Under the pieces are notes generated by a model. It was not told the origin of the DNA. It searched no databases and saw only the letters and a program-made list of their open reading frames with translations. A DNA stretch of 64,000 nucleotides, taken from the IMG/VR virus record IMGVR_UViG_2744054962_000001. One strand, 5' to 3'. The stretch comes from a virus (taxonomy: Duplodnaviria > Heunggongvirae > Uroviricota > Caudoviricetes). This document shows positions 883 to 64,000 of this stretch, piece after piece (position 1 is the stretch's first letter; the number at the start of each line of letters is the position of its first letter). Position numbers and translations under genes: made by a program.

Positions 883-1404
883 TTATTCTTCGAACAATTT
901 TTCGATAGATTTTGTAGGATAGAACAAAGAACGCTCGTTGTTACCAACCAGCTGGATAAAGCCTAAACTTTTATAAAACGCCTTGGCTTTGTCATTTAAC
1001 GCCTCAACGAAAAGTCCATGAATGCCTACAGCAAGAGATGCATTGTACACAACGCGCATTGCATGTGTTACAAGCATTGAGCCAAATCCTTGACCTTGAA
1101 GGGACTTGTCCAAAGCCAGCCTACCCAAAGTAACACTTGGAACATTCCGATAAGGAACCTTCTTTTGTTTGCTTCTTGAAGGTAAGGACTCCTTTTCAAA
1201 ACAACTACCTGACAAAGTGTAATATCCTAACACTTTTGGCCTTTCTTCTTGAGTGCAAAGCACATAAGCACGAAGAATTTTTCCCTCATGCTGCCTTTTT
1301 AAGTGGTTGGCTAAAAAGGCGTTTAGTGACTCTTCGCCGCAATCAAAACCGTTTAGATCATAATCTTTCTCTCCAGAGAAAATCTCTATCGTTGTATTGC
1401 TCAC
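883..1404 (-). CDS. GNAT-family acetyltransferase, probable type II toxin (TacT/AtaT/KacT-like)
   Basis: 173 aa with GNAT-like motif QGQGFGSMLV; immediately downstream of a small RHH/DUF1778-like gene with 7-bp spacing. Confidence 0.6.
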   Translation of the reverse strand: MSNTTIEIFSGEKDYDLNGFDCGEESLNAFLANHLKRQHEGKILRAYVLCTQEERPKVLGYYTLSGSCFEKESLPSRSKQKKVPYRNVPSVTLGRLALDKSLQGQGFGSMLVTHAMRVVYNASLAVGIHGLFVEALNDKAKAFYKSLGFIQLVGNNERSLFYPTKSIEKLFEE

Positions 1405-1411
1405 GAGTAAA

Positions 1412-1720
1412 CTACTCCATGCTTTTCAGACGATCAGCAGCTCGTTTCAGCTTGTCGTTCGGTGCCGGAGGATTGCTTATAGCGTCCATAACCAGATTCC
1501 AGGATTCTTCATTCAGAACTAGTCTACGGTGTTGCTCTATAACTTTCACGGCACGTTCAGATGCACTGCTAACCATAAACTGAGTAATGCTCTGGTTAGA
1601 CATTGCGGCAGCTTCCTCGATGATGCTTTTATCGTCATCGGTTAATCTCAAATCGATGCGCTGCTTTTTTAGTGCTGACATGTATTCCTCCTGATGGCCG
1701 TGATGTAGGAAGGCCATCAA
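1412..1720 (-). CDS. Small antitoxin-like protein (TacA/DUF1778-like), partner of GNAT toxin; true start probably an internal Met
   Basis: About 90 aa, upstream of GNAT gene on the same strand; LKKQRIDLRLTDDDKSIIEEAA resembles ribbon-helix-helix antitoxins of GNAT toxins. Confidence 0.55.
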   Translation of the reverse strand: MMAFLHHGHQEEYMSALKKQRIDLRLTDDDKSIIEEAAAMSNQSITQFMVSSASERAVKVIEQHRRLVLNEESWNLVMDAISNPPAPNDKLKRAADRLKSME

Positions 1721-1999: not shown

Positions 2000-2668
2000 A
2001 TGACCAAGATCTTTGTGGTTGGCGGCACAAAGGGCGGGCCTGGCAAATCCACCGTTGCCCAGCAAATTGCCGTTTGCCTGAAAGTCAAAAAGAAGAAGAA
2101 GGTTTATATTACCGATATAGATATTCAGCGCACGACAACGAGCTGGTGTGAAGACCGTCGACAGAACGAAGACCTTGAGCTGATTCCTTTTGCATACGTT
2201 CAGGATGACATCATTAAGCACCTAAAATCGCTTCAGGGTAGAGCTGAGTTTGTAGTGGTAGATGCTGGTGGCTTCGACTCCGAAATTCAGCGACAAGCGA
2301 TGCTGATGGCTGACGTTATCATTATCCCGCTGCGTCCTAAGCGTCGTGATTTGAAATCTTTACGTGACATCGATCCTATTATCGACAATGTTCGCAATGT
2401 AAACGATAAAGTGAAGGTCCGCGCGGTCATGAACCAGTGCCCGGCTTTGCCATCACAAGTGTCTCGCATTCTGGCGGCTAAAGAGATTGTTGAGACGTTT
2501 GGAATCGAGTCTGCGCCAGTCAATCTATATAACCGCAACGTCTATGATGATGCGGAAGAGTCTGGTCGTTCTATCTTTGAAATGACCGGTAGCGAGCGCG
2601 ACAAAAAGGCGGAAGCCGAGTTTGAAGAATTTGTAGATTATCTGTTGAGTCTGGAGGAAGAAGAATAA
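2000..2668 (+). CDS. parA: ParA-family partition ATPase (type Ib, small ParA)
   Basis: Deviant Walker A GGTKGGPGKST near N-terminus, 222 aa, followed by overlapping small DNA-binding gene. Confidence 0.8.
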   Translation: MTKIFVVGGTKGGPGKSTVAQQIAVCLKVKKKKKVYITDIDIQRTTTSWCEDRRQNEDLELIPFAYVQDDIIKHLKSLQGRAEFVVVDAGGFDSEIQRQAMLMADVIIIPLRPKRRDLKSLRDIDPIIDNVRNVNDKVKVRAVMNQCPALPSQVSRILAAKEIVETFGIESAPVNLYNRNVYDDAEESGRSIFEMTGSERDKKAEAEFEEFVDYLLSLEEEE

Positions 2669-3027
2669 TGTCCATGAAAATGGGTGACCTAGCAAAGCGC
2701 AAAGAGCCTGATGCACCGGCTAAGAACACAACTCCTTTGCGCCAACCAGTCAGACCACAAGGACGCCCGACTCGTGGCAAAGAGAAAATTAAAAGCCGCA
2801 CTATGTCACTGGAAGACGAATACTTCGAGCTTCTGGAAATGATGAAGTTTATCCCTCGTTTCGAGAAGTTCACCCGCTCTGATGTGATTCGTGCTGCTAT
2901 TTTCCATCTGGCAGAGAAGTCACCGCAGGAAATCGAGGACATCGTAAAGCTGAACGAGGCGATCACAGCTGCCGATGTCACGATGCGTACCGATGAAATT
3001 AAACGCGAGTTGATGAAGAAAGGTTAA
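2668..3027 (+). CDS. Partition centromere-binding protein (ParG/ParB-like, probable RHH fold)
   Basis: 119 aa, start overlaps parA stop; basic N-terminus and short helical C-terminal domain. Confidence 0.5.
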   Translation: MSMKMGDLAKRKEPDAPAKNTTPLRQPVRPQGRPTRGKEKIKSRTMSLEDEYFELLEMMKFIPRFEKFTRSDVIRAAIFHLAEKSPQEIEDIVKLNEAITAADVTMRTDEIKRELMKKG

Positions 3028-3028
3028 T

Positions 3029-3052
3029 AATGTGGGCTGTCTAGCCCACATT
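3029..3052. terminator. Hairpin terminator after partition operon
   Basis: Inverted repeat AATGTGGGCT gtct AGCCCACATT followed by ATTTTAATT. Confidence 0.55.
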
Positions 3053-3078
3053 ATTTTAATTAAAGTGGAGTGATAATT

Positions 3079-3831
3079 ATGCATTCGTTAGTATTTGCAT
3101 TTAAAAACATACTCAAGAATGTTATAAACATACTAGGGATGTTAAATATTTTTTTGTCTGTGAGGGTGAGGAGAAAAGATATAAAAGATAAATTAAAGGA
3201 ACTTAACAAAGAAAAAGAACAATTAAAAAGCGAAGAAATTATTATTGATTTATACAAGAAAAAACTCGCATCTAGCAAGGGGAAAGCTAATGATAAAATC
3301 AAAGGAAAAATAATTCACTATATTATTGCTAGAGAGTTGGGGAATGATCCTGATAATGAAGATTTGCGACATAATCTTTTTACAAAGATAAAAGAATCAG
3401 AAGAACAGGTTGAAGTTCTGGTTCATCAAAGAGAAGTAAGTGAGCAGGCGAACAAAAAAGAAACGGTTGTCAATTTGTTTTTATTGTATGAAAAAAATAA
3501 ATTGTTTAAAGCTAAGGGGTTGGCTGTGTTTCTTATAGTTATAAACTTAATTATAGTTGCGACTCTCGATCTTCCAGCTTGGTCATTGATTATAAGTTTT
3601 TTTATTCTCTCTTTGATTATGTTGAAAGATCAGATACTTACTATTCGTGTCTCTAAAGGATATTTTGGCACAAGTGCGTATGAAGCGGTTCAATTGCTTA
3701 AATTCATCAGAGAAAATTCAGACAAATTTGACTCAGATGATAATGACGGTAGCCCACGACGGATATTGAATCCGAAGGGAACAACAAAAAAATCAGACAA
3801 CCTATTCGATAAAGGGTGGCAAAATGTTTGA
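3079..3831 (+). CDS. Predicted multi-pass membrane protein in AT-rich island, unknown function
   Basis: ATG at 3079 preceded by GGAG; hydrophobic segments at N-terminus and mid-protein separated by lysine/glutamate-rich segment; local GC far below surroundings. Confidence 0.5.
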   Translation: MHSLVFAFKNILKNVINILGMLNIFLSVRVRRKDIKDKLKELNKEKEQLKSEEIIIDLYKKKLASSKGKANDKIKGKIIHYIIARELGNDPDNEDLRHNLFTKIKESEEQVEVLVHQREVSEQANKKETVVNLFLLYEKNKLFKAKGLAVFLIVINLIIVATLDLPAWSLIISFFILSLIMLKDQILTIRVSKGYFGTSAYEAVQLLKFIRENSDKFDSDDNDGSPRRILNPKGTTKKSDNLFDKGWQNV

Positions 3832-4246
3832 CCTTGACGCCATCACTAAGTTCTTAAATCAGTGTTTTGATCTACTTTTGCTCAAGCAGCCTTTAAGAAC
3901 TGTTTTCGGAATACTGATTGGTTTCATTATTTTTGTTTTTGTTTACACGTTTAGGTTTGCGATAGCTCAAGATTTTTATGAAATAGATGGTGTGCATTAC
4001 GCTGCATGTTTCGTCATCGGTGTTTTAGTTGTTCACACAAGAACATTTTTTGACGTTATCAAGGGCACCGCAGTTGATGAAGAAATAGATAGTATGATCA
4101 GAGTTATTACGAAGCAGCCACACCTATCTAACCATCAAAAAAACATAATGATTGCTGAAATACTTCAAAAAGAAATTGCAGCCATAAGTCAAAAGAGATT
4201 GGATAAAGTTGCACAAGAAATAACGGAGAAAAAGACAACTGATTAA
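3824..4246 (+). CDS. Predicted membrane protein, unknown function, co-transcribed with preceding gene
   Basis: Start overlaps upstream stop; two hydrophobic helices (ILIGFIIFVFVYTF, ACFVIGVLVV); AT-rich. Confidence 0.5.
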   Translation: MFDLDAITKFLNQCFDLLLLKQPLRTVFGILIGFIIFVFVYTFRFAIAQDFYEIDGVHYAACFVIGVLVVHTRTFFDVIKGTAVDEEIDSMIRVITKQPHLSNHQKNIMIAEILQKEIAAISQKRLDKVAQEITEKKTTD

Positions 4247-4254
4247 TTTAATTA

Positions 4255-4316
4255 CCTGTTTCTGTATATAAATAATAAGTAACTTATTAAATATATATAC
4301 GGAAGCAGGTCTTTTA
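4255..4316. terminator. Long AT-rich hairpin, probable terminator; member of a two-copy repeat family (second copy 53417-53480)
   Basis: Arms CCTGTTTCTGTATATA and TATATACGGAAGCAGG pair with G-U wobbles, followed by TCTTTT. Confidence 0.5.
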
Positions 4317-4417
4317 AAAGACACCCACCAGAACAACTCCCTTCCGTTTCCACTTCCAAAAACTGCCACCAGTCGCTATCATCCGCTCATTGTGATAAGT
4401 AAGTAACTACCTACCAG

Positions 4418-5167
4418 GTGAGCCACATGAGCCAAATCTTTTTCGATACCATCGACAACAACCAGTACGACTTCATGACAGAGTGGAATACCGCTGTTAT
4501 GGACAAGTGGGTTGCTGAAAACATTGGTTTGTCGCGCTGTAAAGACGAGGCTGAACTCTTCGAGACGAAGTGGTTTGATTATCGCGACATGCATCCTCTC
4601 ATGGCCACCTGTCTTTTTACGGAGGCATACAAACGTCAGTACTCAAATATCATGCTGACGCACGGTCGCGAACACTTTGAAACAGCTCCGTTCACCACCG
4701 GGTTAAAACGTCTGCCTTATCAGGAGTTGTCGACTGCCAACAAAACGTCGCTATGGAAAGCACGCCAGTTTGCGGATCGCTATTGCTGCTCATACGACTA
4801 CTTTATCTCCACCGTTCTTTCCGCAGCTGCACGACGGCTGTGGGACAAGCTGCCGCGCCCACAGCATTTGTGGCAGCCAGAACTGATTGAGATATTTGAA
4901 GAGAAATTAGCCAGACGCGCAACAACCCGTCTGGATGACTCTCTGGTTAGCTTTAAGCATATGGGAGACATGCAGTTCAACCCGATTCAGGAAAGCTATT
5001 TTGAGTGGATTCTGGAGCGTTTGCGCACCATCCCTCGCAGTAAGCGCATACGCGCAATTTTCTCCGCTATCTGGCTAATGGAAATCGTTCCAGAGCGCCT
5101 TATTTCCGCCCACTTTCCAGAAGAACTGGAAGAAGCACGGCGGTTTATTGATCCCCTATCTAATTAA
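4418..5167 (+). CDS. Hypothetical protein
   Basis: 249-aa ORF upstream of helicase gene; no recognisable motif. Confidence 0.45.
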   Translation: MSHMSQIFFDTIDNNQYDFMTEWNTAVMDKWVAENIGLSRCKDEAELFETKWFDYRDMHPLMATCLFTEAYKRQYSNIMLTHGREHFETAPFTTGLKRLPYQELSTANKTSLWKARQFADRYCCSYDYFISTVLSAAARRLWDKLPRPQHLWQPELIEIFEEKLARRATTRLDDSLVSFKHMGDMQFNPIQESYFEWILERLRTIPRSKRIRAIFSAIWLMEIVPERLISAHFPEELEEARRFIDPLSN

Positions 5168-5210: not shown

Positions 5211-6551
5211 ATGACCGAACTTTGCCATACAGGACGCGGGCTGTCCGAAGAGTTTGATGAAGATTTCCAGAACAGACTGACGGCATATTTTTGTCGTGAT
5301 CACGAGTTTCTTACTCGTGCGGGAGATCTGGTTGTGCCTAGCCAATTTGCCAATGCGGCCAATGCCATATTGGTTAATATGGTTTCGGGCTATTACCGTA
5401 TGTACAAGAGCGCGCCCTCTTCATCTGCAATTCTGGATATGCTTAAGCGTGCGAAACGCGATAAGACTATCCGTGAGGAACTATTCGCCGATGTTGTTGC
5501 TGCGTTTAAGCGCATCCTTGCAGAAAAATTGTCCGATACCTCGTACATGGTTGACCAGGTATCAACCTTCGCAAAAAGCGTAGCGTTTGATGATGCTCTG
5601 ATTAAGGCTGCTGAACTGAAAGAGAAAGGCGACTTTCAGGGGGCGATGGCAATCATGGCCAAGGTTCAGCAGATTGGATCGAACGAAGCGACCGGAATCT
5701 ATGACTACTACACCTCCGCAAGTGAGCGATTGAAAGCGCGTGAATATGAGGCTTCAGAGGAGTATGTACCAAACAGTATTACAACTGGACTCCCTCTTCT
5801 CGATAGGTTGCTGTACCAAAAAGGCTGGGCAAAGCGCGAAATGGTGCTCTTCATGGGGTTCGCTAAATCCGGTAAATCGACCGCAATGGGTGAGTTTTCC
5901 ATAAACGCAACGCTTGCTGGCTACAATGTTCTGTATCTCTCGCTGGAGGTTCACACCACCATTTTATCCGACCGTTTTGATGCAAGATTGTCGGAGACGG
6001 AAATGTCCAAGCTGGTGGAACGGCGCGATGAGGTTCATCGTAAGTTGGCAGAGTTGGGAGCCACGAAGGGGATTGGTAGTTTGTGGGTTGTTGAGCGTCC
6101 GTCAGGAAGTATGTCACCGGCAGACCTGGATCGTATGCTTAACAGCATGAAAGCCAATGGCATGGTGCCTGACATGGTTGTTGTCGACTACGCAGATTTG
6201 ATGCGTGCCAGTTATGACCTTCGTGATGATCGCGCCAACATTCGTAGTATCTACACCGATTTACGTGCTCTTTATGACAAGCATAACGTTGCTGGTATCA
6301 CGGCGTCGCAAACAAACCGTGAAGGTGGCGCGTCAGAAGTTGCCACAATGATGCACGCTGCCGACAACATCGAAAAAGTACGTATTGCTGACCTGGTAAT
6401 AACGATCAACAAAACCGAAGAAGAAGAAGCGAAAGGAGAGGCTCGTCTCTACTTTGCTGGTTCGCGTAACCAGCAGGGAGGGATCAGCATTCGCGTTAAA
6501 CAAAACCTCGAACAAATGCGCTTCATTGAGCGAATCTTAGACGTTACCTAA
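5211..6551 (+). CDS. Replicative DNA helicase (DnaB-like / RecA-fold)
   Basis: Walker A GFAKSGKST, Walker B-like VVVDYADLM, 446 aa, immediately upstream of primase. Confidence 0.7.
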   Translation: MTELCHTGRGLSEEFDEDFQNRLTAYFCRDHEFLTRAGDLVVPSQFANAANAILVNMVSGYYRMYKSAPSSSAILDMLKRAKRDKTIREELFADVVAAFKRILAEKLSDTSYMVDQVSTFAKSVAFDDALIKAAELKEKGDFQGAMAIMAKVQQIGSNEATGIYDYYTSASERLKAREYEASEEYVPNSITTGLPLLDRLLYQKGWAKREMVLFMGFAKSGKSTAMGEFSINATLAGYNVLYLSLEVHTTILSDRFDARLSETEMSKLVERRDEVHRKLAELGATKGIGSLWVVERPSGSMSPADLDRMLNSMKANGMVPDMVVVDYADLMRASYDLRDDRANIRSIYTDLRALYDKHNVAGITASQTNREGGASEVATMMHAADNIEKVRIADLVITINKTEEEEAKGEARLYFAGSRNQQGGISIRVKQNLEQMRFIERILDVT

Positions 6552-6557
6552 AAAATA

Positions 6558-6580
6558 AGCGTGGAGAACACCTCCACGCT
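6558..6580. terminator. Hairpin after helicase gene
   Basis: AGCGTGGAG aacac CTCCACGCT inverted repeat. Confidence 0.4.
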
Positions 6581-6632
6581 TGATTCATTGGTGAAACAAC
6601 TTTTCTTTTGCCAAACCACAAAAGAAAAACAC

Positions 6633-7814
6633 ATGAGCCTTTATGTTATATCAACATTTAGGTTGGTCACAATATTGCCTGTTAAAAGTGGAATTATCGT
6701 GAGCGAGCTGAAAGAGCTAATTACCGAATTAGATTTTGAACAATGGTTGGATACTGAAGGTATCGTTTATCGACGTGGAGGCGTGAGTACTCGCGGTCGT
6801 GAAGTGAATATCAAGGAGTGTCCGGTATGCGGCAGCTCCAACTGGAAGGTATATTTCAATCTGACCAGTGGCGTCGGTAAATGCTTCGCTGGTGATCATC
6901 CCGAAGAGATTCAGTTCAATAAGCTGGTCTTCCTCAAGCACTACAGCGGTAAATCACGACGACAGTTCGAGGAATATGTGCAGAACGCTCTTCTTTCCCA
7001 GGGGTGGGCACCAAAGAAAGAAGAGATAGTGCTTGCAAGCACAGTCGAGTTAGAGGGACCAGTTGCACTCCCTCGTCATTACGATCTTCCTATAGATGGC
7101 CATCTTCCAGACTATCTGGTTGAACGAAATATATCGCCTGAAATGGCAAAGTATTTTGACCTACGATACTGCGTCGAAGGCAAGCACGCTTATGTAGATC
7201 CGTATACAGATCAGGTTAAAGGACAGATTTTCGATATGCGAATACTGATACCGGTTTACGATCTGGATGGGGTAATGAAGACATTTCAAGGACGAGACAT
7301 TACCGGTACAGCAGAACGCCGCTACCTCTTCCCTATGCAGCTGCCGGCGTCGGGTAAGTTTCTCTACAACGGCCACAACGCAGTCGGGAAACAAACAGTC
7401 GTTGTGTGTGAAGGGGCATTTGACGTAATGGGCGTGAAGCGAGCCATCTTCGACGAAAAGACGCTGAGGGATTATGTAGAGCCAATTGGCACGTTCGGGA
7501 TGCACTTGTCCGGAAATATGAATGAGGACGCTGAAGATCAGTTGGGCGCGTTCCTGACGCTCAAGGCGCGTGGATTACGCAACGTCATCATGATGTGGGA
7601 TAGCGAGAAGCAAGCGATCCGCAACACCATGTCGGCGGCCAAACGCCTCACCAGCATCGGACTAAATGTCAAAGTGGCCTGTCTGGGCGAAGAAGGTCTC
7701 GACCCCGGCGACGCGACGCCAGAGCAGATCCTCAAAGCCTATTATCGTGCCAAGCCTTACTCCAAACAGCTGGAGTTAAAATGCAAAGTGCTCGGTATCA
7801 AGTCACTCGTGTAG
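6633..7814 (+). CDS. DNA primase (DnaG-like zinc-binding domain plus TOPRIM)
   Basis: CPVCGSS...CFAGDH zinc-ribbon-like motif and TOPRIM-like VVVCEGAFDVMG; ATG at 6633 preceded by AAAAGAAAAACAC motif; ORF track start 6561 overlaps the upstream hairpin. Confidence 0.65.
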   Translation: MSLYVISTFRLVTILPVKSGIIVSELKELITELDFEQWLDTEGIVYRRGGVSTRGREVNIKECPVCGSSNWKVYFNLTSGVGKCFAGDHPEEIQFNKLVFLKHYSGKSRRQFEEYVQNALLSQGWAPKKEEIVLASTVELEGPVALPRHYDLPIDGHLPDYLVERNISPEMAKYFDLRYCVEGKHAYVDPYTDQVKGQIFDMRILIPVYDLDGVMKTFQGRDITGTAERRYLFPMQLPASGKFLYNGHNAVGKQTVVVCEGAFDVMGVKRAIFDEKTLRDYVEPIGTFGMHLSGNMNEDAEDQLGAFLTLKARGLRNVIMMWDSEKQAIRNTMSAAKRLTSIGLNVKVACLGEEGLDPGDATPEQILKAYYRAKPYSKQLELKCKVLGIKSLV

Positions 7815-7815
7815 T

Positions 7816-8913
7816 TTAAGTTGTGGGAGACAGACGGTTCAGGACAAACGCTGCGATATTATTTAGTGCTATATTTAGCAAACTTGCATCATATGTTTGG
7901 TCGTTATCCTTAGGTTTAAAATTGCTGATACTGACTGTCTCACTGTGCTCATTTTCATAGAAACGTTTACTGCTTGAATCTAGGCGTTTGAGGACGTAAA
8001 TTTGCCCAAATTCAATCCACTCACCTTCACCATTGAGTCCGCTCCCTGTTTTGACTGAGATGAAGTACTTTGCCAGCTTGGTTGTAATGCAGTCTTCATT
8101 TTTTTCTATGCAAACCTTAATGCCGGCGGCTTTCAAACTACGATAAATGCTGTTTGGATATGCCCCACTATAGATTTCGCTGCTTTCAATGATAATGACG
8201 TCGTATTCTTCCTTTGGCTCAATAGATAAAGCTTCAGGCTCCAAATCATCCTTGTGAAAAATAAATCCTAAAAGACGCTCAAGTTCATCTGTTAATTTGA
8301 ACATGGGGTTCGCTTGGATCTCGCCAGCCCTGTCTTCGTAGACGAGCCCCGAGGTTATGAGCTTATTTAGCGATCTCAGAGCCATTCCACTTTTTTGTGA
8401 TGTGAGGCTAACTTGGGCTAATACAGTTGATTTATAGCCTTTTATTGGCGAGCTTGTTGTGATGTAAAGTTTGCGCGCATATTCAATATCAAAGCAGGTT
8501 AACCCACTCAGTATGTGGATAAAAAATAGTTTTTCATCGTCGTTAAGGCTGCTGCGGGCTAGGCTTACCGTCAAGCGAATGTAGTATTCTGTTTTCTTGT
8601 CTTCATCATCAAGCACGAGCTTTTTGACTAACGCCGAAAAGTGTTCTCTTGAGATATCGACCTCATCGTCGCAAATTTCACCAATGCCCATAATGTAACG
8701 GTTGAATCGATCACGACAAGTCGTCGCATTTATCTCTGAGAACAACGTGAACATTTTTTCCGCTGCCTCAATATGAGGTCCAACAAGCGGTATAGATTTG
8801 GCAAACGCCAAACCAGTTTCTTTCAATACCTTCCTGTGTTGCATCACGTTTTTGGACAACGTTGTCATAGACCTAAGCCTTGTGTGTTTAACGTATGAGT
8901 TAAGTGAAATCAT
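7816..8913 (-). CDS. Hypothetical protein, orphan minus-strand gene within replication cluster
   Basis: 365-aa ORF on opposite strand to both neighbours, lower GC than flanks; no recognisable catalytic motif. Confidence 0.5.
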   Translation of the reverse strand: MISLNSYVKHTRLRSMTTLSKNVMQHRKVLKETGLAFAKSIPLVGPHIEAAEKMFTLFSEINATTCRDRFNRYIMGIGEICDDEVDISREHFSALVKKLVLDDEDKKTEYYIRLTVSLARSSLNDDEKLFFIHILSGLTCFDIEYARKLYITTSSPIKGYKSTVLAQVSLTSQKSGMALRSLNKLITSGLVYEDRAGEIQANPMFKLTDELERLLGFIFHKDDLEPEALSIEPKEEYDVIIIESSEIYSGAYPNSIYRSLKAAGIKVCIEKNEDCITTKLAKYFISVKTGSGLNGEGEWIEFGQIYVLKRLDSSSKRFYENEHSETVSISNFKPKDNDQTYDASLLNIALNNIAAFVLNRLSPTT

Positions 8914-58818: not shown

Positions 58819-61800
58819 CTATATCTGCCCACCTACTCCTTTGAACTTTTCAATAAACGTGACGATTTTCTGGAAAACGGTCTGTTTTTTCGTTTTATAT
58901 TGCGGGTTTAACGGACTAAGTTTTGGTAATGTCTCGTTTAATTCTGTGCCATTTTCGGTGGCGTATTCGCGTTTTAAAGACGTGCGAATATAGCGTTTCG
59001 CCGCCTCTTCATTGAGATTTTCTTCTTTTATCAATGCTTCTGCTTCACGTTGCTGTTCGCGTTGAGCAAACGTAAAGAATGCCTCAATGATACTGGCTTT
59101 GTCTGGTAAATCATCCAGGTTCGTTTGCTGAATAAAATCGACCACCAGGCCCTCTTTCGCCCGGTTCCCCAGGCTTGAACGAATTAAGCGTTTGACCTCT
59201 TCGATCATTTCGCCCTTGCCTTTATTTTGTCTGTTGTGTTCGAAAATCAGTCCAAGGATATAATCCAGGTTTATTTCCTGAGACTTCAGCAAATCGACCT
59301 CAAAAACTACGTCATCCCAGTCAGTGGTTGATTTCTCTTTTTTCTCAGCTTCTTTCTCACGGCGTTGCCAGTCGCGAATATCGTTATAGGCAGAACGATA
59401 ATCCTGAATCTTGCGTTCAGCAGGGAGACGAATCGTTTGCAATTCAGCGAACTTTTCATCATCCACATAATGTTCTTCTTTGAATTTTTCTACCGCAACA
59501 GGATCGCTAAGATCGATTTGTTGCAGGGCTTTCAGCGTGGCAAATTCATCATAGTTTTGCAGGATGTTCTCGGCACGCAGGTATTCACCAAACAGTTTAA
59601 CGAAGTCTTTCTTCTCTTTTTCACTTTCAATACTGGTAGGGTCAGGGAACCGTTGTTCCAATTCTGAAACTACTGCCATAAAGCCGCGCTTAGCTTCACC
59701 AGTGGCAGCATCAGTAAAGCCTTCCATATACTCTGCATAACTCTTTTCTAAAACCACATTTTTGGTGTTTTTGCCACCAAACAGCGTTATGGCATCAATA
59801 GTTGAGCGTTCCAGATCCCGGAAAGTGACGATATTACCGAAGGTTTTAGTTGCATCATAAATACGGTTGGTGCGGGAAAATGCCTGCATCAAGCCGTGAA
59901 AACGCAGGTTTTTATCGACGAATAGCGTGTTCAATGTTGGAGCATCGAAGCCAGTTAAAAACATCCCCACGACAATTAACAGATCGATATCCTGATTTTT
60001 AACCCGCTGGGCTAAATCACGATAGTAGTTCTGAAAACCGTTACTGTCGGTGCTGAAGTTAGTTTTAAAATAGCTGTTATACTCACGAATTGCAGCATCA
60101 AGAAACTCTTTAGCACTGCTGTCCATTGCGCTGGTATCAAAAGTTTCATCGGATATTTCACCAATGGCATTTTGTTCTTCATTAGCGGCAAAGGAGAAGA
60201 TTGTCGCAACACGCAGTGGGTTATAGGTGGCAGATTTATTAGCGGCTTCCTCTTGTAACCGTTTAAACGTCGCGTAATAGGCTTTCGCGGCATCCACGCT
60301 GCTTACTGCCAGCATGGCATTAAAACCTTTGGAACCAGGGAAAGTACGGTGGGTCTTCTGACGGAAATTATTCAGAATATATTGCGTGATTTCCTGAATA
60401 CGCATGGGATGAAGAAACGCCTGCTGATTTTCAGCCGCACTCAGTTTTTTCTCGTCAGTTTCTGTCTCTAAAGACTTAAACTGTGGCCGCACATCGTTGT
60501 AGTCCACCTTGAATTTGAGCACTTTTTCGTCACGAATCGCATCGGTAATTACATACGAATGCAATTCACGACCAAATACGCTGGCGGTTATTTCTGAGCC
60601 TAAGGCATTTTCCGGGAAAATAGGTGTGCCGGTAAAACCAAACTGATAATAGCGTTTGAATTTCTTCTTCAGGTTTTTCTGCGCTTCTCCAAACTGGCTG
60701 CGGTGACATTCATCAAATATAAACACCACTTGCTGATTGTATACAGGCAGGTCGCTTTCTGCTTTCATCAGGTTATTAAGTTTCTGAATAGTGGTGACGA
60801 TAATTTTGTTATCGTCCTTATCCAGATTTCGTTTAAGACCTGCTGTATTTTCCGAGCCGTTAACACTATCTGGCGAAAAACGCTGATATTCCTTCATGGT
60901 CTGGTAATCGAGGTCTTTCCTGTCGACCACGAAGAAGACTTTATCAATAAAGTCCAGTTCTGTTGCCAGACGCGCGGCTTTAAAGCTGGTCAGTGTTTTA
61001 CCAGAACCGGTGGTGTGCCAGATAAAGCCACCGCTTTCGGGGTTAGACCAGTTTTTCGCTTTATAGGAGCTGTTGATTTTCCATAAGATTCGTTCGGTGG
61101 CGGCAATCTGGTACGGTCGCATCACCAGTAGTGTCTGACTACTGTCAAACACGCTGTAGTTCACCAGAACATTCAGCAGAGTATGTTTCTGGAAAAAGGT
61201 AGCGGTAAAATCTTTGAGGTCTTTAATCAGCGTGTTGTCTGATTTCGCCCAGTTCATGGTGAAGTCAAAACTATTTTTATCGCGCTTTGTGGTGTTGGCA
61301 AAGTAACGGGTATCGGTGCCGTTAGAAATGACAAACAGTTGCAGATACTTAAACAGGGAATTTTCGCTGTTAAAACTCTCTTTACTGTAACGATGTATCT
61401 GGTTGAAAGCCTCACGAATCGCCACGCCGCGCTTTTTCAGTTCGATTTGCACCAGAGGCAAGCCATTAACCAGGATAGTTACGTCATAACGGTTAGCGTG
61501 AGAACCTGCCTGTTCAAACTGCTGGATAATCTGCACTTTGTTGCGCATGAGATTCTTTTTATCGATCAAATAGATGTTCTCAAGACGCCCGTCATCAAAA
61601 ATAAAGTCGCAAATATAGTCGATATGGATTTTACGGGTCTTATCCAGAATGCCATCACTCGGGTTGTCCAGATACTGCTCCGTGAAACGCCGCCACTCGC
61701 TGTCATTAAATACCACACCATTGAGGCTCTGAAGCTGTTCCCGAACATTGGACAGCATCGCCAACTGTGATTTTACCGAAATAAATTCATAGCCCTGATT

Positions 61801-61935
61801 CCGCAGGTCCTGAATCAGTTCCCGTTCCAGGTCCGATTCGCTCTGGTAGCTGTCGCCTGTTTGCTCAGCTTTGATGTACTTATCAAGGACGATAAAGTTA
61901 TTGGATTCAGCAATGGTGTGTGTTTGATGAGTCAT
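58819..61935 (-). CDS. hsdR: Type I restriction enzyme R subunit (Type IC, EcoR124I-like)
   Basis: 1038 aa; N-terminus [24 protein letters not shown] matches my recollection of EcoR124I HsdR; helicase motifs TGSGKT and DECHRS. Confidence 0.8.
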
Positions 61936-62056
61936 AGCGCATCCTTTGTGCCGCCTGGCAAGGGCCGGAAGGGCGTTAAGAGTGACTTCCGGCGCGTAAA
62001 AAATAGTCTATATACAGACCGGGTGTTAAGGAGGCCCGGTCGGTAGCAATGGTCAA

Positions 62057-63394
62057 TTATTTACTGACAGTTTCAGGTTTTGGGAAACTGAACAGTAAAT
62101 CACGATAGTACTCGTATTGTTTCTGGCGCAACTCGATTTCACGCGGAAGGCCTTCGGTGATGGAGTTAGTCAGGGTGTCGAATTTATCCAGAATCCGAAC
62201 GATTTCAGACTGGATGGCAAGGGATTTTTCCGGATTGCCCGGGCAGGGGATGGGGATGAGTAGTTTTGACATCAATGCATTTGAGCTTAGATTCGGCTGT
62301 GCTCCGCCCCCTGCAAGGATATAAATAGTCTCTGTATTTAACAATAAAAAATGGTATAAATAATTATTGTTTAGAATATTTTCTTTGGGTATAAATTTTC
62401 CAACCCGTTGATTAAGATAACATTTTATTTCTTTTTTATAAATCCCCACTTTTCCTGTAGTGGCACCTGACATTGCAATCAATATATTTCCCATAGATAC
62501 CTCAAAGGAGGATAAATCTTCCTTGTAATCATTTAGTGAAAAGTATTTCACCTCATCTAAGTTAACATTAAACCCATCTATATTTGTGATTCTAACTATC
62601 GGTAACCCAGTTTCTTTAAATAAGCTGCTTTTAAATGCAAATCCATTTTTAAAATCACAAACATCCTTCAGGGTTTTCCACTCAACCTCAACCCCATCCA
62701 GCAATTTTTCCAGATAAATAGGTTTTTCCTGCTCCTCATCAAAACTCAACAACTGGTCGCGATAGTAGTTGTATTGTTTTTTACGCATGCTAAGCTCTGC
62801 TGTAAGCTCTGCTGTAAGGGCGCTGAATTTGTCCAGAATTCGCACGATTTCAGACTGGATAGTAAGGGATTTTTCTGGATCATTAGGACAAATGATAGGA
62901 ACCAGTATTTTTTTAAATCTTGATTTTGAAATATTAAAGCGTGTTACACCACTAGCTGTTTTTGCTATTTCAGAGCGCATGAAATGGGTTCGAAAAAGGT
63001 ATTTTGCGAACTCCGGTTTGATTTTTATGCTGTTACTGAATCTGATACCAAAAGAAAAGCTGTTTAAATACACTGATTCTTCGAAGTGTACTGTAACGGC
63101 GGAGGACATGCCTGCTTCATCAGCAATTTCAGATGAGCCAGTAAATAAAACATCCCCATATCTTACTTTATTTTGTCTTTCTCCCTCACTAATATATACA
63201 TAATCAGTAGGGTAATCATTCACATCTAAATAACCAAATATTTTTTTGTATGAAACATATCTGGCATTACCGTTCTCAAAATCAGATTTACTCTTTCCTG
63301 TTAGGCCACCATAAATTTCAGCGACGTTCCCCAATGGCAACCACTTAACTTCAACCCCATCCAGCAATTTTTCCAGATAACTTAACTCGCTCAT
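62057..63394 (-). CDS. hsdS: Type I restriction-modification specificity subunit (Type IC) with two TAEL repeats
   Basis: Conserved N-terminal, central and C-terminal blocks ([20 protein letters not shown]...[23 protein letters not shown]) with two AT-rich variable target-recognition domains. Confidence 0.8.
62793..62816 (-). repeat. 12-bp tandem repeat encoding TAEL-TAEL in the hsdS central conserved region
   Basis: AGCTCTGCTGTA x2 on + strand, equivalent to ACAGCAGAGCTT x2 on coding strand. Confidence 0.7.
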
Positions 63395-64000
63395 TTCTGT
63401 ACCTCGCAGCCTTCAATTTCAGCCACAATCGCATCAATATCTTTACGCAACTGGTCGATTTTGCTGACCGTGGTTTTCAGCTCTGCATTCAGTTCAGCAA
63501 TATTGATTATTTCGCGGTTATCTTTCGCTTCCACATAGCTGCTTACCGACAGGTTATAGTCATTCGCGACAACGGTCTCAAACGTGACAGATTTCGCCAG
63601 ATGAGCAACATCTTCCTTGCTGGCAAATACCTGCATAATCTGTTCGATATGGGCATCGGTCAGGATATTGTTGTTAGTCTCTTTTTTGAACAGTTCGCTG
63701 GCGTCAATAAACTGAACTTTGGTATCCGTTTTATGTTTAGACAGCACCAGAATGTTTACGGCAATGGTGGTGCCAAAGAACAGGTTCGGTGCCAGTGAAA
63801 TCACGGTTTCGACATAGTTATTATCGACCAGATACTGACGGATTTTCTGCTCCGCGCCGCCACGGTAAAAAATACCCGGGAAGCAGACAATCGCAGCACG
63901 ACCTTTGGCAGAAAGATAGTTCAGTGCATGTAATACAAACGCAAAGTCAGCTTTGGATTTGGGGGCCAGAACGCCAGCCGGGGCAAAACGCTCATCGTTA
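63391..64000 (-). CDS. hsdM: Type I restriction-modification methyltransferase subunit, C-terminal part (5-prime end beyond window)
   Basis: Frame open to window edge on minus strand; overlaps hsdS start by 4 bp. Confidence 0.7.

What the first reader, a model, noticed from the sequence alone, without database searches (positions are those of the whole stretch)
3055..4320. AT-rich two-gene island encoding membrane proteins, bracketed by hairpins, between partition and replication modules
Two overlapping genes (3079-3831, 3824-4246) encode proteins with multiple hydrophobic helices and no enzymatic motif I can recognise. Their base composition is far more AT-rich than the flanking parAB and helicase genes, and the island sits between a terminator hairpin (3029-3052) and a long AT hairpin (4255-4316). 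This is the compositional signature of a horizontally acquired cargo module; membrane-protein pairs in this context are often superinfection-exclusion or abortive-infection effectors, but the function here is unknown.
Basis: partly seen in the sequence, partly recalled or inferred. Interest (0 to 1): 0.6.

Follow-up and report, generated by a model that had tools for sequence, protein, structure and literature searches.

The report
Mobile membrane-protein pair in defence slot
Two overlapping genes for small inner-membrane proteins form a self-contained, AT-rich cassette in a swap-in/swap-out slot of an SSU5-like phage-plasmid, a slot that in sister elements holds known anti-phage genes, so this uncharacterised but widespread pair is a good untested candidate for a new phage-exclusion system.

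Summary
Genes A (3079-3831, 250 aa) and B (3824-4246, 140 aa) overlap by 8 nt. Each has a two-helix membrane hairpin. At 31.8% GC this is the lowest-GC segment in the window, and hairpins bracket it.

The window is an E. coli SSU5/pHCM2-like phage-plasmid. The variable segment is 3030-4253, between the parB stop and a backbone palindrome conserved in 17 compared siblings. Two relatives have this slot empty. Others carry PD-T4-3-like, KAP-NTPase (PDC-S49) or DUF2971 (PDC-S31) genes.

The pair is not a one-off insertion. Diverged alleles (25-76% aa identity) fill the same slot in 73 plasmids and in phage SSU5 itself, always paired and always low GC. A/B pairs also occur in P2/186-like prophages and in integrase-primase islands, next to PD-T7-5 or SIR2 genes. 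A's conserved core defines an unannotated family of at least 588 clusters. B-like partners were found in all 16 A-like loci outside the PLSDB set where the downstream gene was readable.

There are no Pfam, NCBIfam, PADLOC, PDB, Rex, Sie or holin matches. Both genes are under purifying selection.

Best reading (about 0.5): a membrane-acting anti-phage exclusion or abortive-infection module expressed in the plasmid state. Function is inferred from context only.

The parts
2000..2668 (+). parA (context): small ParA/MipZ-type partition ATPase. It is the first gene of the transcription unit that the cargo slot is appended to.
   Evidence: Pfam MipZ, AAA_31, CbiA and ParA hits. It is 82-98% aa identical across 13 sibling elements.
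2668..3027 (+). parB-like small protein (context). Its stop codon (3025-3027) is the left boundary of the variable slot.
   Evidence: phrog_5111. It is 91-100% aa identical across siblings. Homology with siblings carrying other cargo ends at 3029-3031. The ParB role is inferred from position only.
3026..3055 (.). Perfect 13-bp GC-cored hairpin directly after the parB stop. It looks like a terminator or attenuator and belongs to the variable segment.
   Evidence: dG -18.5 kcal/mol, z -6.3. Every cargo type has a different hairpin at this position; the SSU5 clade has none.
3030..4253 (+). The cargo cassette proper, i.e. the segment that is replaced or absent in sibling elements.
   Evidence: blastn breakpoints against 15 sibling loci. 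Empty-slot relatives L038 and L039 have the parB stop, about 28 nt, then the palindrome.
3079..3831 (+). Gene A, 250 aa. Layout: amphipathic N-terminal helix (aa 1-28), charged helical region that looks like a coiled coil (aa 29-125), conserved juxtamembrane motif ETVVNLFLLxEK (aa 127-139), TM hairpin (aa 147-186), and a conserved cytoplasmic tail LKDxxLxxRVxKGYFGxxxxEAxQLLKFIxxNxDxFD...RRILN (aa 182-231).
   Evidence: phrog_22270 E 2.9e-115. dN/dS 0.10-0.29. The core defines a family of at least 588 clusters.
3824..4246 (+). Gene B, 140 aa, with an 8-nt overlap with A that suggests translational coupling. Layout: N-terminal helix, invariant P23-x-R25-T26, TM1 with G29xxxG33, short acidic loop with invariant D55, TM2 with C62xxxG66, and a cytoplasmic helical hairpin (aa 80-139) with invariant G81, A83, E86, L101 and Q105.
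   Evidence: phrog_17322 E 7.8e-69. dN/dS 0.11-0.28. A B-like partner follows A in every locus where the downstream gene was readable.
4254..4310 (.). Backbone palindrome CCTGYTTCTGTATA...TATACRGAAGCAGG followed by TCTTT. It is the right boundary of the slot and a terminator-like end of the parAB(+cargo) unit.
   Evidence: dG -26.1 kcal/mol, z -7.1. It is conserved and foldable in all 17 sibling loci whatever the cargo, and it directly follows parB in empty-slot elements.
4418..5167 (+). Conserved 241-249-aa backbone gene (context), the first gene after the slot. Function unknown; it precedes the DnaB-like helicase (5211-6551) and the primase (6561-7814).
   Evidence: phrog_2500. It is 85-100% aa identical across siblings. 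Helicase and primase Pfam hits.

Best explanation
A and B form a two-protein inner-membrane module. The phage-plasmid expresses it while it is maintained as a plasmid, and it protects the carrier cell, and so the element, from other phages.

Proposed mechanism. The cassette sits between the last gene of the parAB unit and that unit's terminator-like palindrome, so it is transcribed with parAB. In this clade its own hairpin may attenuate that transcription. Both proteins insert as helical hairpins with both termini in the cytoplasm and assemble into a hetero-oligomer. The hypervariable N-terminal half of A, a coiled coil in this allele and extra TM helices in others, determines specificity or sensing. 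The conserved TM hairpin and about 60-aa tail of A, together with B, form the effector. The effector either blocks genome entry at the inner membrane (superinfection exclusion) or depolarises the membrane once infection is sensed (abortive infection).

Shown: gene structure, membrane character, the strict A-B pairing, purifying selection, slot variability with an empty state, cassette mobility among four kinds of mobile element, and adjacency to known defence genes. Inferred: co-transcription with parAB, complex formation, topology, the anti-phage role and the mode of action.
For: (1) The slot behaves as a defence hotspot. Its states include:
- empty;
- a GIY-YIG gene matching PD-T4-3, E 1.6e-23;
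- a KAP NTPase matching PDC-S49, E 2.3e-22;
- DUF2971 genes matching PDC-S31, E 3e-41;
- an unknown 352-aa gene;
- A/B alone;
- A/B plus DUF2971.
An independent survey reports PD-T4-3, PD-T7-5, PrrC and R-M systems in E. coli/Shigella SSU5-group phage-plasmids (10.1101/2025.09.12.675607).

(2) The same A+B pair occurs in accessory positions of unrelated mobile elements:
- integrase-AlpA-D5 primase islands, directly upstream of a PD-T7-5 homologue (E 7e-131);
- the end of a P2/HP1-like prophage;
- the gpS-gpV tail-gene slot of a P2-like prophage;
- downstream of the CI repressor of a 186/P2-like prophage, followed by bPH and SIR2 genes.
P2 tail-gene and integrase-side positions are described defence hotspots (PMC13586616).

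(3) Strict pairing. A B-like gene overlaps or abuts the A-like stop in every locus where the downstream gene was readable. This holds even where A matches the profile only at E 1e-12 to 1e-15.

(4) Evolutionary pattern. The flanking proteins are 82-100% identical while A is 25-73% and B 31-76% identical. dN/dS is 0.10-0.29 against 0.01-0.09 for the flanks. Cassette dS is far below flank dS for L011-L012 and win-L002, and the reverse holds for win-L012, which means alleles are exchanged between backbones. A's N-terminal half is replaced wholesale between alleles while the TM hairpin and tail are conserved.

(5) Expression in the carried state is plausible. In the SSU5 clade A starts 1-2 nt after the parB stop. 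In L034 the pair lies downstream of the CI repressor on the same strand.

(6) Low GC relative to its neighbours in the phage-plasmid, integrative-island and P2-like Enterobacteriaceae hosts, as is usual for accessory and defence cargo in enterobacteria (general knowledge). In L034 the contrast is marginal (0.39 against 0.41-0.42).
Against: There is no experimental evidence, and no homology to any characterised defence, exclusion or abortive-infection protein. Specifically:
- PADLOC-DB v2 gave no significant hit for A, B or 92 relatives.
- There is no relationship to lambda RexA/RexB/SieB or P22 SieA/SieB.
- Pfam, NCBIfam and PDB give nothing.
- The structure models are of low confidence (pLDDT 55 and 59.5), so no fold argument is possible.

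Guilt by association in hotspots also fits toxin-antitoxin, anti-defence or other lysogenic-conversion genes. No sigma-70-like promoter was found in the 3030-3078 leader, and the upstream hairpin might terminate most transcription. The PADLOC library dates from 2023, so a system named later could have been missed, although literature and accession searches found nothing.
Confidence: 0.5

Rival explanations
1. Addiction or stability module. A is a membrane-damaging toxin and B its cognate neutraliser (or the reverse). The pair is kept next to parAB to kill or arrest cells that lose the phage-plasmid. Any anti-phage effect would be secondary.
For: It has an overlapping two-gene architecture and sits immediately after the partition genes, in the plasmid-maintenance region. 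A separate TacT/TacA-type TA lies just upstream of parA in the same element, so this region does collect stability genes. Membrane hairpin proteins are plausible toxins. The cassette moves as an indivisible pair.
Against: About 90% of sibling phage-plasmids lack the pair and some have an empty slot. The pair also occurs inside integrated P2-like prophages, including within the tail-gene cluster, where post-segregational killing has little to act on. Both partners are integral membrane proteins of 130-300 aa, unlike known small membrane toxins with RNA or small-protein antitoxins (general knowledge). The hypervariable N-terminus of A is not explained by this model.
Confidence: 0.15
2. A lysogenic-conversion membrane function unrelated to phages, for example immunity to a bacteriocin or contact-dependent toxin, envelope-stress tolerance, or modulation of a host transporter. 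It would benefit the host in some niches.
For: The proteins are small, low-GC membrane proteins carried as 'morons' on prophages and plasmids and expressed from lysogenic units. There is no catalytic motif. Allelic diversity could track diverse toxins.
Against: No toxin, bacteriocin or secretion gene is linked to the pair in any of the contexts examined. The recurrent neighbours and slot alternatives are anti-phage genes. Pfam has no immunity-protein match.
Confidence: 0.12
3. A phage-serving membrane function for the element's own life cycle, such as a holin/antiholin-like lysis-timing pair, or a factor that helps the element's own genome entry or release.
For: The proteins are two-TM hairpins with charged C-terminal tails, which superficially resembles class II holins. 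The pair is encoded on phages.
Against: The pair is absent from most siblings with otherwise near-identical backbones. It lies in the par/rep region and not in a lysis cassette. It is also found in satellite-like islands. There is no similarity to the P22 gp13 holin (hhalign probability below 1%). P2-like hosts of the pair already have their own lysis genes nearby (L029: lysozyme, LysA, LysC).
Confidence: 0.06
4. Allele-specific exclusion or incompatibility between related phage-plasmids. This is analogous to entry exclusion in conjugative elements: the membrane pair recognises and blocks incoming elements that carry the same or a different allele.
For: Many deeply diverged alleles sit at one locus of otherwise near-identical backbones. 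The proteins are membrane-located. They are probably expressed with the maintenance genes.
Against: Most SSU5-like elements have no A/B allele at all, so it cannot be a general self-recognition system. The pair is also found in P2-like prophages and primase islands with unrelated entry routes.
Confidence: 0.07

Closest known systems
Lambda RexA/RexB (prophage abortive-infection pair)
   Same: A two-gene module carried by a temperate element and apparently expressed in the lysogenic or carried state. In L034 the A/B pair lies downstream of the CI repressor on the same strand, as rexAB does in lambda. It has a membrane component that could collapse membrane potential.
   Different: There is no sequence relationship (hhalign probability 0.5% or less). 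RexA is soluble and RexB has four TM helices, whereas here both partners are two-TM hairpin proteins. No trigger or phenotype is known for A/B.
Superinfection-exclusion membrane proteins (P22 SieA/SieB, lambda SieB, T4 Imm/Sp)
   Same: Small inner-membrane proteins encoded by phages, low GC, dispensable, and located in accessory ('moron') positions.
   Different: There is no similarity to SieA or SieB and no Pfam hit of any kind, which would include a SieB-family model if Pfam holds one. Those proteins act as single genes, while A/B is an obligate pair with sizeable cytoplasmic domains. T4 Imm/Sp were not compared.
Two-TM membrane effectors of CBASS, Pycsar and retron systems
   Same: A hairpin of two TM helices is used as a cell-killing effector. 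One of 92 distant A-family members matched the PADLOC '2TM effector' model (E 6.7e-6), and one carries an EAD1 effector-associated domain.
   Different: The window's proteins do not match these models. No cyclase, reverse transcriptase or STAND NTPase is linked to the pair. The single hits are anecdotal and were not traced to specific proteins.
[quoted passage not shown] 2022, from my own knowledge; PMC13586616)
   Same: A fixed position between conserved core genes where unrelated defence cassettes are swapped rapidly, so that near-identical backbones carry different cargo. Some A/B copies lie in P2 accessory positions.
   Different: This slot belongs to a phage-plasmid partition/replication region: it runs from the parB stop to a conserved palindrome. 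I did not find it described in the literature I could search.
PHROG families phrog_22270 and phrog_17322
   Same: A and B are full-length members of these families (E 2.9e-115 and 7.8e-69).
   Different: Both families are labelled 'unknown function', so membership gives no functional information.

Membership tests
phrog_22270 / phrog_17322 (PHROG v4, unknown function) | Full-length profile match | tested here: met
   A matches phrog_22270 at E 2.9e-115 (aa 12-250 on profile positions 16-255 of 255). B matches phrog_17322 at E 7.8e-69 (aa 1-136 on 1-136 of 136).
Known or candidate defence systems in PADLOC-DB v2.0.0 | Significant match of A or B to any of the 5027 models | tested here: not met
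   The best hits are E 0.0012 (PDC-M02B) and 0.0088 (LeoBC) for A and 0.01 (JetC) for B. All fall in coiled-coil or low-complexity regions. Diverged A/B copies give no hits. Of 92 distant A relatives, 2 give isolated hits.
Lambda RexAB | Sequence or profile similarity to RexA or RexB | tested here: not met
   hmmsearch scores are at or below 0 bits. hhalign probabilities are 0.1-0.5% for both the A and B profiles.
Lambda RexAB | Soluble sensor plus four-TM channel partner | tested here: not met
   Both A and B are membrane proteins, each with a two-helix hairpin.
SieA / SieB superinfection exclusion | Sequence or profile similarity to P22 SieA, P22 SieB or lambda SieB, or to a Pfam SieB model | tested here: not met
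   hhalign probabilities are 0.4% or less. hmmsearch gives at most 3.3 bits. There is no Pfam hit of any kind at E < 0.1 apart from two sub-threshold unrelated ones for B.
Holin (class II, two TM) | Similarity to a holin and location in a lysis cassette next to an endolysin | tested here: not met
   hhalign against P22 gp13 gives probabilities of 0.5-0.7%. The pair lies between the partition and replication genes. In L029 the phage's own lysis genes are separate from the pair.
Defence-hotspot cargo (operational definition: variable content between conserved core genes, with recognised defence systems among the alternative occupants) | Conserved flanks, an empty state, and several unrelated occupants including known defence genes | tested here: met
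   The flanks are 82-100% aa identical. The slot is empty in L038 and L039. Alternative occupants match PD-T4-3, PDC-S49 and PDC-S31. A spread sample of 687 plasmids shows at least 7 slot lengths.
Anti-phage defence system (functional definition) | Reduces phage plating or protects cultures when expressed | not testable with these tools
   This needs plaque and infection assays. No report of such a test was found for these proteins.
Type II-like toxin-antitoxin pair | One partner toxic alone and neutralised by the other | not testable with these tools
   Only the overlapping two-gene architecture is seen. There is no homology to any TA family in Pfam or NCBIfam.
T4 Imm / Sp | Sequence similarity | not tested
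   The T4 sequences were not fetched. No Pfam model of any kind matched A or B.

The most novel reading that the evidence does not exclude
A/B is the founding example of a widespread, previously unrecognised two-component inner-membrane anti-phage system, with at least 588 clusters at 50% identity and no annotated domain. A hypervariable N-terminal module on A would sense infection. The conserved TM hairpin and about 60-aa tail of A, together with B, would form a membrane-disrupting or entry-blocking complex. The cassette would shuttle as a unit between phage-plasmids, P2-like phages and primase-bearing islands. It would also mark a defence hotspot, not described in the literature I could search, that is built into the parAB transcription unit of SSU5-like phage-plasmids.
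Probability: 0.4. Interest if true: 0.65.

Novelty: new variant of a known kind. Interest (0 to 1): 0.55.

Why it matters
SSU5/pHCM2-like phage-plasmids are common in clinical E. coli, Shigella, Salmonella, Klebsiella and Enterobacter. What they carry in their accessory slots affects phage susceptibility, which matters for phage therapy and for the spread of these elements.

This analysis yields three things:
- a precisely bounded cargo slot (parB stop to a conserved palindrome) with an empty state, which makes cargo easy to catalogue in hundreds of genomes;
- a compact 1.2-kb cassette that is strictly paired, under selection and very mobile, with no annotated domain, and that repeatedly sits beside validated defence genes, making it a cheap, high-prior candidate for a defence screen;
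- a large unannotated protein family, defined by the R-[IV]-x-x-G-[FY]-[FY]-G...EA..L..FI tail after a TM hairpin, that current defence-finding tools do not flag.

If the pair is validated, it would add a new membrane-based mechanism and a new hotspot type to the known set.

Tried and rejected
Searches that found nothing useful:
- Pfam, NCBIfam and PADLOC scans of A and B gave nothing significant. The same scans on 92 distant A relatives gave only four isolated Pfam hits and two isolated PADLOC hits. A guess at which long relatives carry the EAD1 domain failed.
- Profile searches against PDB sequences found nothing.
- Profile comparison with lambda RexA/RexB/SieB and P22 SieA/SieB/gp13 was negative, and A and B are not detectably related to each other.
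- The search for related loci with the broad alignment failed because it was too diverse. With the tighter alignment it found only one further SSU5-like element among GTDB species representatives, in Buttiauxella.
- Literature searches by accession, PHROG id and topic found no description of the pair. DS-37, reported in Salmonella SSU5-like elements, is a single-gene system and so is not this pair. What DS-33 and HEC-06 are could not be established.

Ideas I rejected:
- 'Low GC means recent acquisition': all alleles share it.
- 'Both hairpins bracket the island as part of it': the right one is backbone.
- 'A shared leader between the A/B and KAP cassettes': the blastn extension to 3094 proved on alignment to be only loose similarity with a different hairpin sequence.
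- 'Pseudogenes or spurious ORFs': dN/dS is 0.1-0.3, and both reading frames are conserved across 25-75% divergence.
Full report

The window has two same-strand ORFs that overlap by 8 nt (ATGTTTGA). Gene A is at 3079-3831 (250 aa) and has a GGAG 8 nt upstream of its ATG. Gene B is at 3824-4246 (140 aa). RefSeq annotates the same CDSs in identical plasmids.

Kyte-Doolittle scans give A a strong hydrophobic hairpin at about aa 147-186 and a weakly hydrophobic N-terminal helix. B has two hydrophobic helices at about aa 27-48 and 58-76.

The island is 31.8% GC, against 47-49% for its neighbours and 45.4% for the window. It is the lowest of all 1266-bp windows in the 64 kb, about 4.5 sd below the mean.

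Both hairpins are real. 3026-3055 has a 13-bp perfect stem (-18.5 kcal/mol, z -6.3). 4254-4310 folds at -26.1 kcal/mol (z -7.1).

A ParA-type ATPase and a small ParB-like gene lie upstream. A conserved 241-249-aa gene, a DnaB-like helicase and a primase lie downstream.

2. WHAT THE ELEMENT IS, AND WHERE THE CARGO BEGINS AND ENDS

The region matches Salmonella phage SSU5, Escherichia phages Cyrano and CMS-2020a, and 687 PLSDB plasmids. Most of these plasmids are about 105-120 kb and non-mobilizable. They come from Escherichia, Klebsiella, Enterobacter, Salmonella, Citrobacter and Cronobacter. The window is therefore an SSU5/pHCM2-like phage-plasmid.

Only 7 of the 687 plasmids carry this cassette at DNA level. 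So do 7 of 5,426 complete E. coli genomes, always on plasmids.

Pairwise blastn against 15 sibling loci puts the homology breaks at 3029-3031 (just after the parB stop) and at 4254-4255.

The right-hand AT hairpin is backbone. The palindrome CCTGYTTCTGTATA...TATACRGAAGCAGG followed by TCTTT is present and foldable in all 17 siblings examined, whatever they carry.

The left hairpin lies inside the variable part. Each cargo type has its own, different GC-cored hairpin right after the parB stop. In the SSU5 clade there is none, and gene A starts 1-2 nt after the stop.

Two relatives have an empty slot: E. albertii pEA11_2 and S. Anatum pSAN1-1735. In both, the parB stop is followed by about 28 nt and then the palindrome.

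Cargo is thus inserted between the last gene of the parAB unit and that unit's terminator-like palindrome.

3. THE SLOT IS A DEFENCE HOTSPOT

An evenly spaced sample of the 687 plasmids shows these approximate slot lengths:
- 25 nt (empty)
- 820 nt
- 930 nt
- 1224 nt (A/B)
- 1233 nt
- 1400 nt
- 1750 nt
- 1930-2035 nt

The alternative occupants are as follows:
- a reverse-strand GIY-YIG protein matching PD-T4-3 (E 1.6e-23);
- a KAP-family P-loop NTPase matching PDC-S49 (E 2.3e-22);
- DUF2971 proteins matching PDC-S31 (E 2e-33 to 3e-41);
- an unannotated 352-aa protein.

A 2025 survey of clinical isolates independently lists PD-T4-3, PD-T7-5, PrrC and R-M systems in E. coli/Shigella SSU5-group elements. 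It does not map them to this slot (10.1101/2025.09.12.675607).

4. THE PAIR IS A RECURRENT, ANCIENT, MOBILE CASSETTE, NOT A ONE-OFF INSERTION

Single-sequence searches of 5.8 billion proteins found only 8 clusters for A and 4 for B. However, SSU5_035 and SSU5_036 are diverged homologues (32% and 39% identity) at the same position.

tblastn with B finds 73 plasmids plus SSU5 and pJN2-26, at 31-100% identity. In all 11 plasmid loci fetched, and in a Logan contig, an A-like gene (214-259 aa) overlaps a B-like gene (136-140 aa) directly after parB.

Across 14 loci the four flanking proteins are 82-100% identical, while A is 25-73% and B 31-76% identical. Every allele is low GC (A 0.31-0.39, B 0.29-0.39) next to flanks of 0.47-0.55. 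Low GC is therefore a stable trait of the family and not a mark of recency.

Both genes are under purifying selection (dN/dS 0.10-0.29), more relaxed than the flanks (0.01-0.09).

Cassette history and backbone history are decoupled:
- L011 (E. ludwigii) and L012 (E. coli) have cassette dS of 0.08-0.18 but flank dS of 0.9-1.7.
- The window and L012 have 96-100% identical flanks but only 27% (A) and 41% (B) identical cassette proteins.

5. THE PAIR ALSO OCCURS OUTSIDE PHAGE-PLASMIDS

A profile of 13 A sequences recovers 40 clusters, some on Mb-scale contigs. Their contexts are:
- Integrase-AlpA-(Bro-N)-D5/Pox_D5 primase islands in Enterobacter and K. aerogenes. Here A (214 aa) and B (136 aa) are followed by a 374-aa PD-T7-5 homologue (PADLOC E 7e-131).
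- The distal end of a P2/HP1-like prophage of K. oxytoca (A 293 aa, B 136 aa).

A full HMMER scan of 1.84 billion representatives with a 26-sequence profile gives 588 proteins at E <= 1e-3 and 138 at E <= 1e-10. Most of these align over the C-terminal core. Contexts of the distant members that I looked up:
- a pair of 243 and 139 aa between gpS and gpV of a P2-like prophage;
- a very diverged allele (303 and 133 aa) in the SSU5-like slot;
- a 186/P2-like prophage with the order CI repressor, a 184-aa gene, A (245 aa), B (134 aa), a bPH gene and a SIR2 gene, and with a putative AbiC gene at the far edge of the locus.

An HMM built from B finds the partner in all 16 loci outside the PLSDB set where the downstream gene is readable, with E from 3e-67 down to 3e-8. 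That count includes a 43-aa fragment at a contig end (E 8.5e-8).

The cassette GC is 0.33-0.36 in L019, L022, L025, L029 and L033, against neighbours of 0.41-0.59. In L034 the contrast is marginal: 0.39 against 0.41-0.42.

P2 tail-gene and integrase-side positions are documented defence hotspots, and near-identical defence systems are known to move between different kinds of mobile element (PMC13586616).

6. WHAT THE PROTEINS LOOK LIKE

Protein A, in order from the N-terminus:
- A variable N-terminal region. In this allele it is an amphipathic helix followed by about 100 charged helical residues. In the SSU5 clade it is two extra TM helices.
- A conserved juxtamembrane motif (E/K)T(V/I)VxL(F/Y)LLxEK.
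- A TM hairpin with a very short uncharged loop and K/R-rich flanks.
- A tail of constant length (57-65 residues from the motif to the C-terminus): YR(I/V)xKG(F/Y)FGxxxxEAxxLxxFIxxNxDxxDF..G..R/K.

R190 and E202 are invariant, and G194 and G197 nearly so, across 92 diverse relatives.

Protein B has invariant P23, R25 and T26 before TM1, G29xxxG33 within TM1, and D55 in the short acidic loop. It has C62xxxG66 in TM2, and G81, A83, E86, L101 and Q105 in a C-terminal helical hairpin.

By the positive-inside rule both hairpins are N-in/C-in, so all the soluble parts face the cytoplasm (inference).

The 8-nt overlap suggests translational coupling, and the small-xxx-small motifs suggest helix packing in an oligomer. 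Both points are inference.

The AlphaFold2 models are all-helical but of low confidence, with pLDDT 55.4 for A and 59.5 for B. Only the TM hairpin of A reaches about 75.

7. COMPARISON WITH KNOWN FAMILIES

A and B are full-length members of phrog_22270 and phrog_17322, both of unknown function. Everything else was negative:
- no significant hit in Pfam, NCBIfam or PADLOC-DB v2 for A or B, and none in PADLOC for diverged copies;
- none for 92 distant relatives apart from isolated single hits, namely EAD1 (E 3.5e-8) and the CBASS-type '2TM effector' (E 6.7e-6), which I treat as anecdotal;
- no PDB relatives;
- no meaningful BFVD fold matches;
- hhalign probability below 1% against lambda RexA, RexB and SieB and P22 SieA, SieB and holin gp13, and no detectable A-B relationship.

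Literature and accession searches found no description of the pair.

8. INTERPRETATION

The best-supported reading is a two-protein inner-membrane module, expressed while the element is carried, that excludes or aborts infection by other phages (confidence about 0.5).

Shown:
- the architecture of the two genes;
- the strict pairing;
- purifying selection;
- the slot's variability and its empty state;
- mobility among four kinds of mobile element;
- adjacency to PD-T7-5, DUF2971/PDC-S31 and SIR2 genes.

Inferred:
- transcription from the parAB promoter through a cassette-specific attenuator hairpin;
- formation of an A-B complex;
- topology;
- the anti-phage role;
- whether it acts by blocking genome entry or by depolarising the membrane.

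No sigma-70-like promoter was found in the 49-nt leader.

The main rival is a stability/addiction (toxin-antitoxin-like) module (0.15). It would not be exclusive with abortive infection. Less likely are a non-phage lysogenic-conversion function (0.12), allele-specific exclusion between phage-plasmids (0.07) and a lysis or entry function for the element itself (0.06).

9. VERDICT

'Low GC signals recent acquisition' and 'both hairpins belong to the island' do not.

The pair is a new, uncharacterised variant of a familiar kind of thing, namely defence-hotspot cargo on temperate elements. It belongs to a large unannotated family. It is a cheap and well-motivated candidate for experimental testing, but nothing here demonstrates function.

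Noticed in passing
window 883-1720 (- strand): There is a GNAT acetyltransferase toxin (173 aa) with a TacA1/DUF1778 antitoxin (102 aa) immediately upstream of parA. This position also varies among siblings. Some have a roughly 400-aa HEPN-domain protein (L009, L011). Some have two + strand hypothetical genes (L001, L012, L018). Klebsiella elements have a 173-185-aa reverse-strand gene. It looks like a second cargo slot on the other side of parAB.
   Followed up: partly
window 7816-8913 (- strand): A 365-aa gene of unknown function (phrog_22938; no Pfam or PADLOC hit; GC about 0.41) lies just after the primase. Siblings carry different genes at this position: two + strand hypotheticals in L001, a TPR protein in L002 and a 388-aa gene in L008. 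This may be a third variable slot.
   Followed up: partly
window 58819-63804 (- strand): There is a Type I restriction-modification system: hsdR (1038 aa), hsdS (445 aa, two Methylase_S domains) and the C-terminal part of hsdM, which runs on beyond 63804. The hsdS gene is the only other region of the window below 38% GC.
   Followed up: partly
window 4254-4310; L038 1350-1415; L039 1345-1410: The backbone palindrome at the right edge of the slot keeps an invariant GC-containing stem base, while its AT-rich interior varies yet stays self-complementary across 17 elements. In empty-slot elements it sits about 28 nt after parB. It may act as a terminator that insulates the replication genes, or as a recombination boundary. 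Neither role was tested.
   Followed up: partly
L019-L021 and L025-L027, 10001-12227: In chromosomal integrase-AlpA-D5 primase islands of Enterobacter and K. aerogenes, the A/B pair is always followed 58 nt later by a 374-aa PD-T7-5 homologue. In SSU5-type elements it is followed instead by a DUF2971 (PDC-S31) gene. Whether these third genes work together with A/B or are independent neighbours is unknown.
   Followed up: no
alignment A5 (distant A-family members): One of 92 distant relatives carries an EAD1 (effector-associated) domain (E 3.5e-8). Another matches the PADLOC CBASS '2TM effector' model (E 6.7e-6). If confirmed, these would point to the A core being used as a membrane effector in other conflict systems. 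I could not identify which proteins they are.
   Followed up: partly
L015 5034-7408 (C. freundii pRHBSTW-00444_2): In this 217-kb plasmid a mer (mercury-resistance) operon directly follows the A/B + DUF2971 cargo, where the conserved 241-aa gene and the helicase normally lie. The region around the slot therefore also takes up transposon-borne resistance genes.
   Followed up: no
L007 1269-1628 (phage Cyrano CYRAN_29): The small ParB-like protein is annotated in phage Cyrano as a 'RelE/ParE putative toxin'. No Pfam, NCBIfam or PADLOC result here supports that. The window's copy gives only a weak ribbon-helix-helix-like NCBIfam hit. The annotation is probably wrong.
   Followed up: partly
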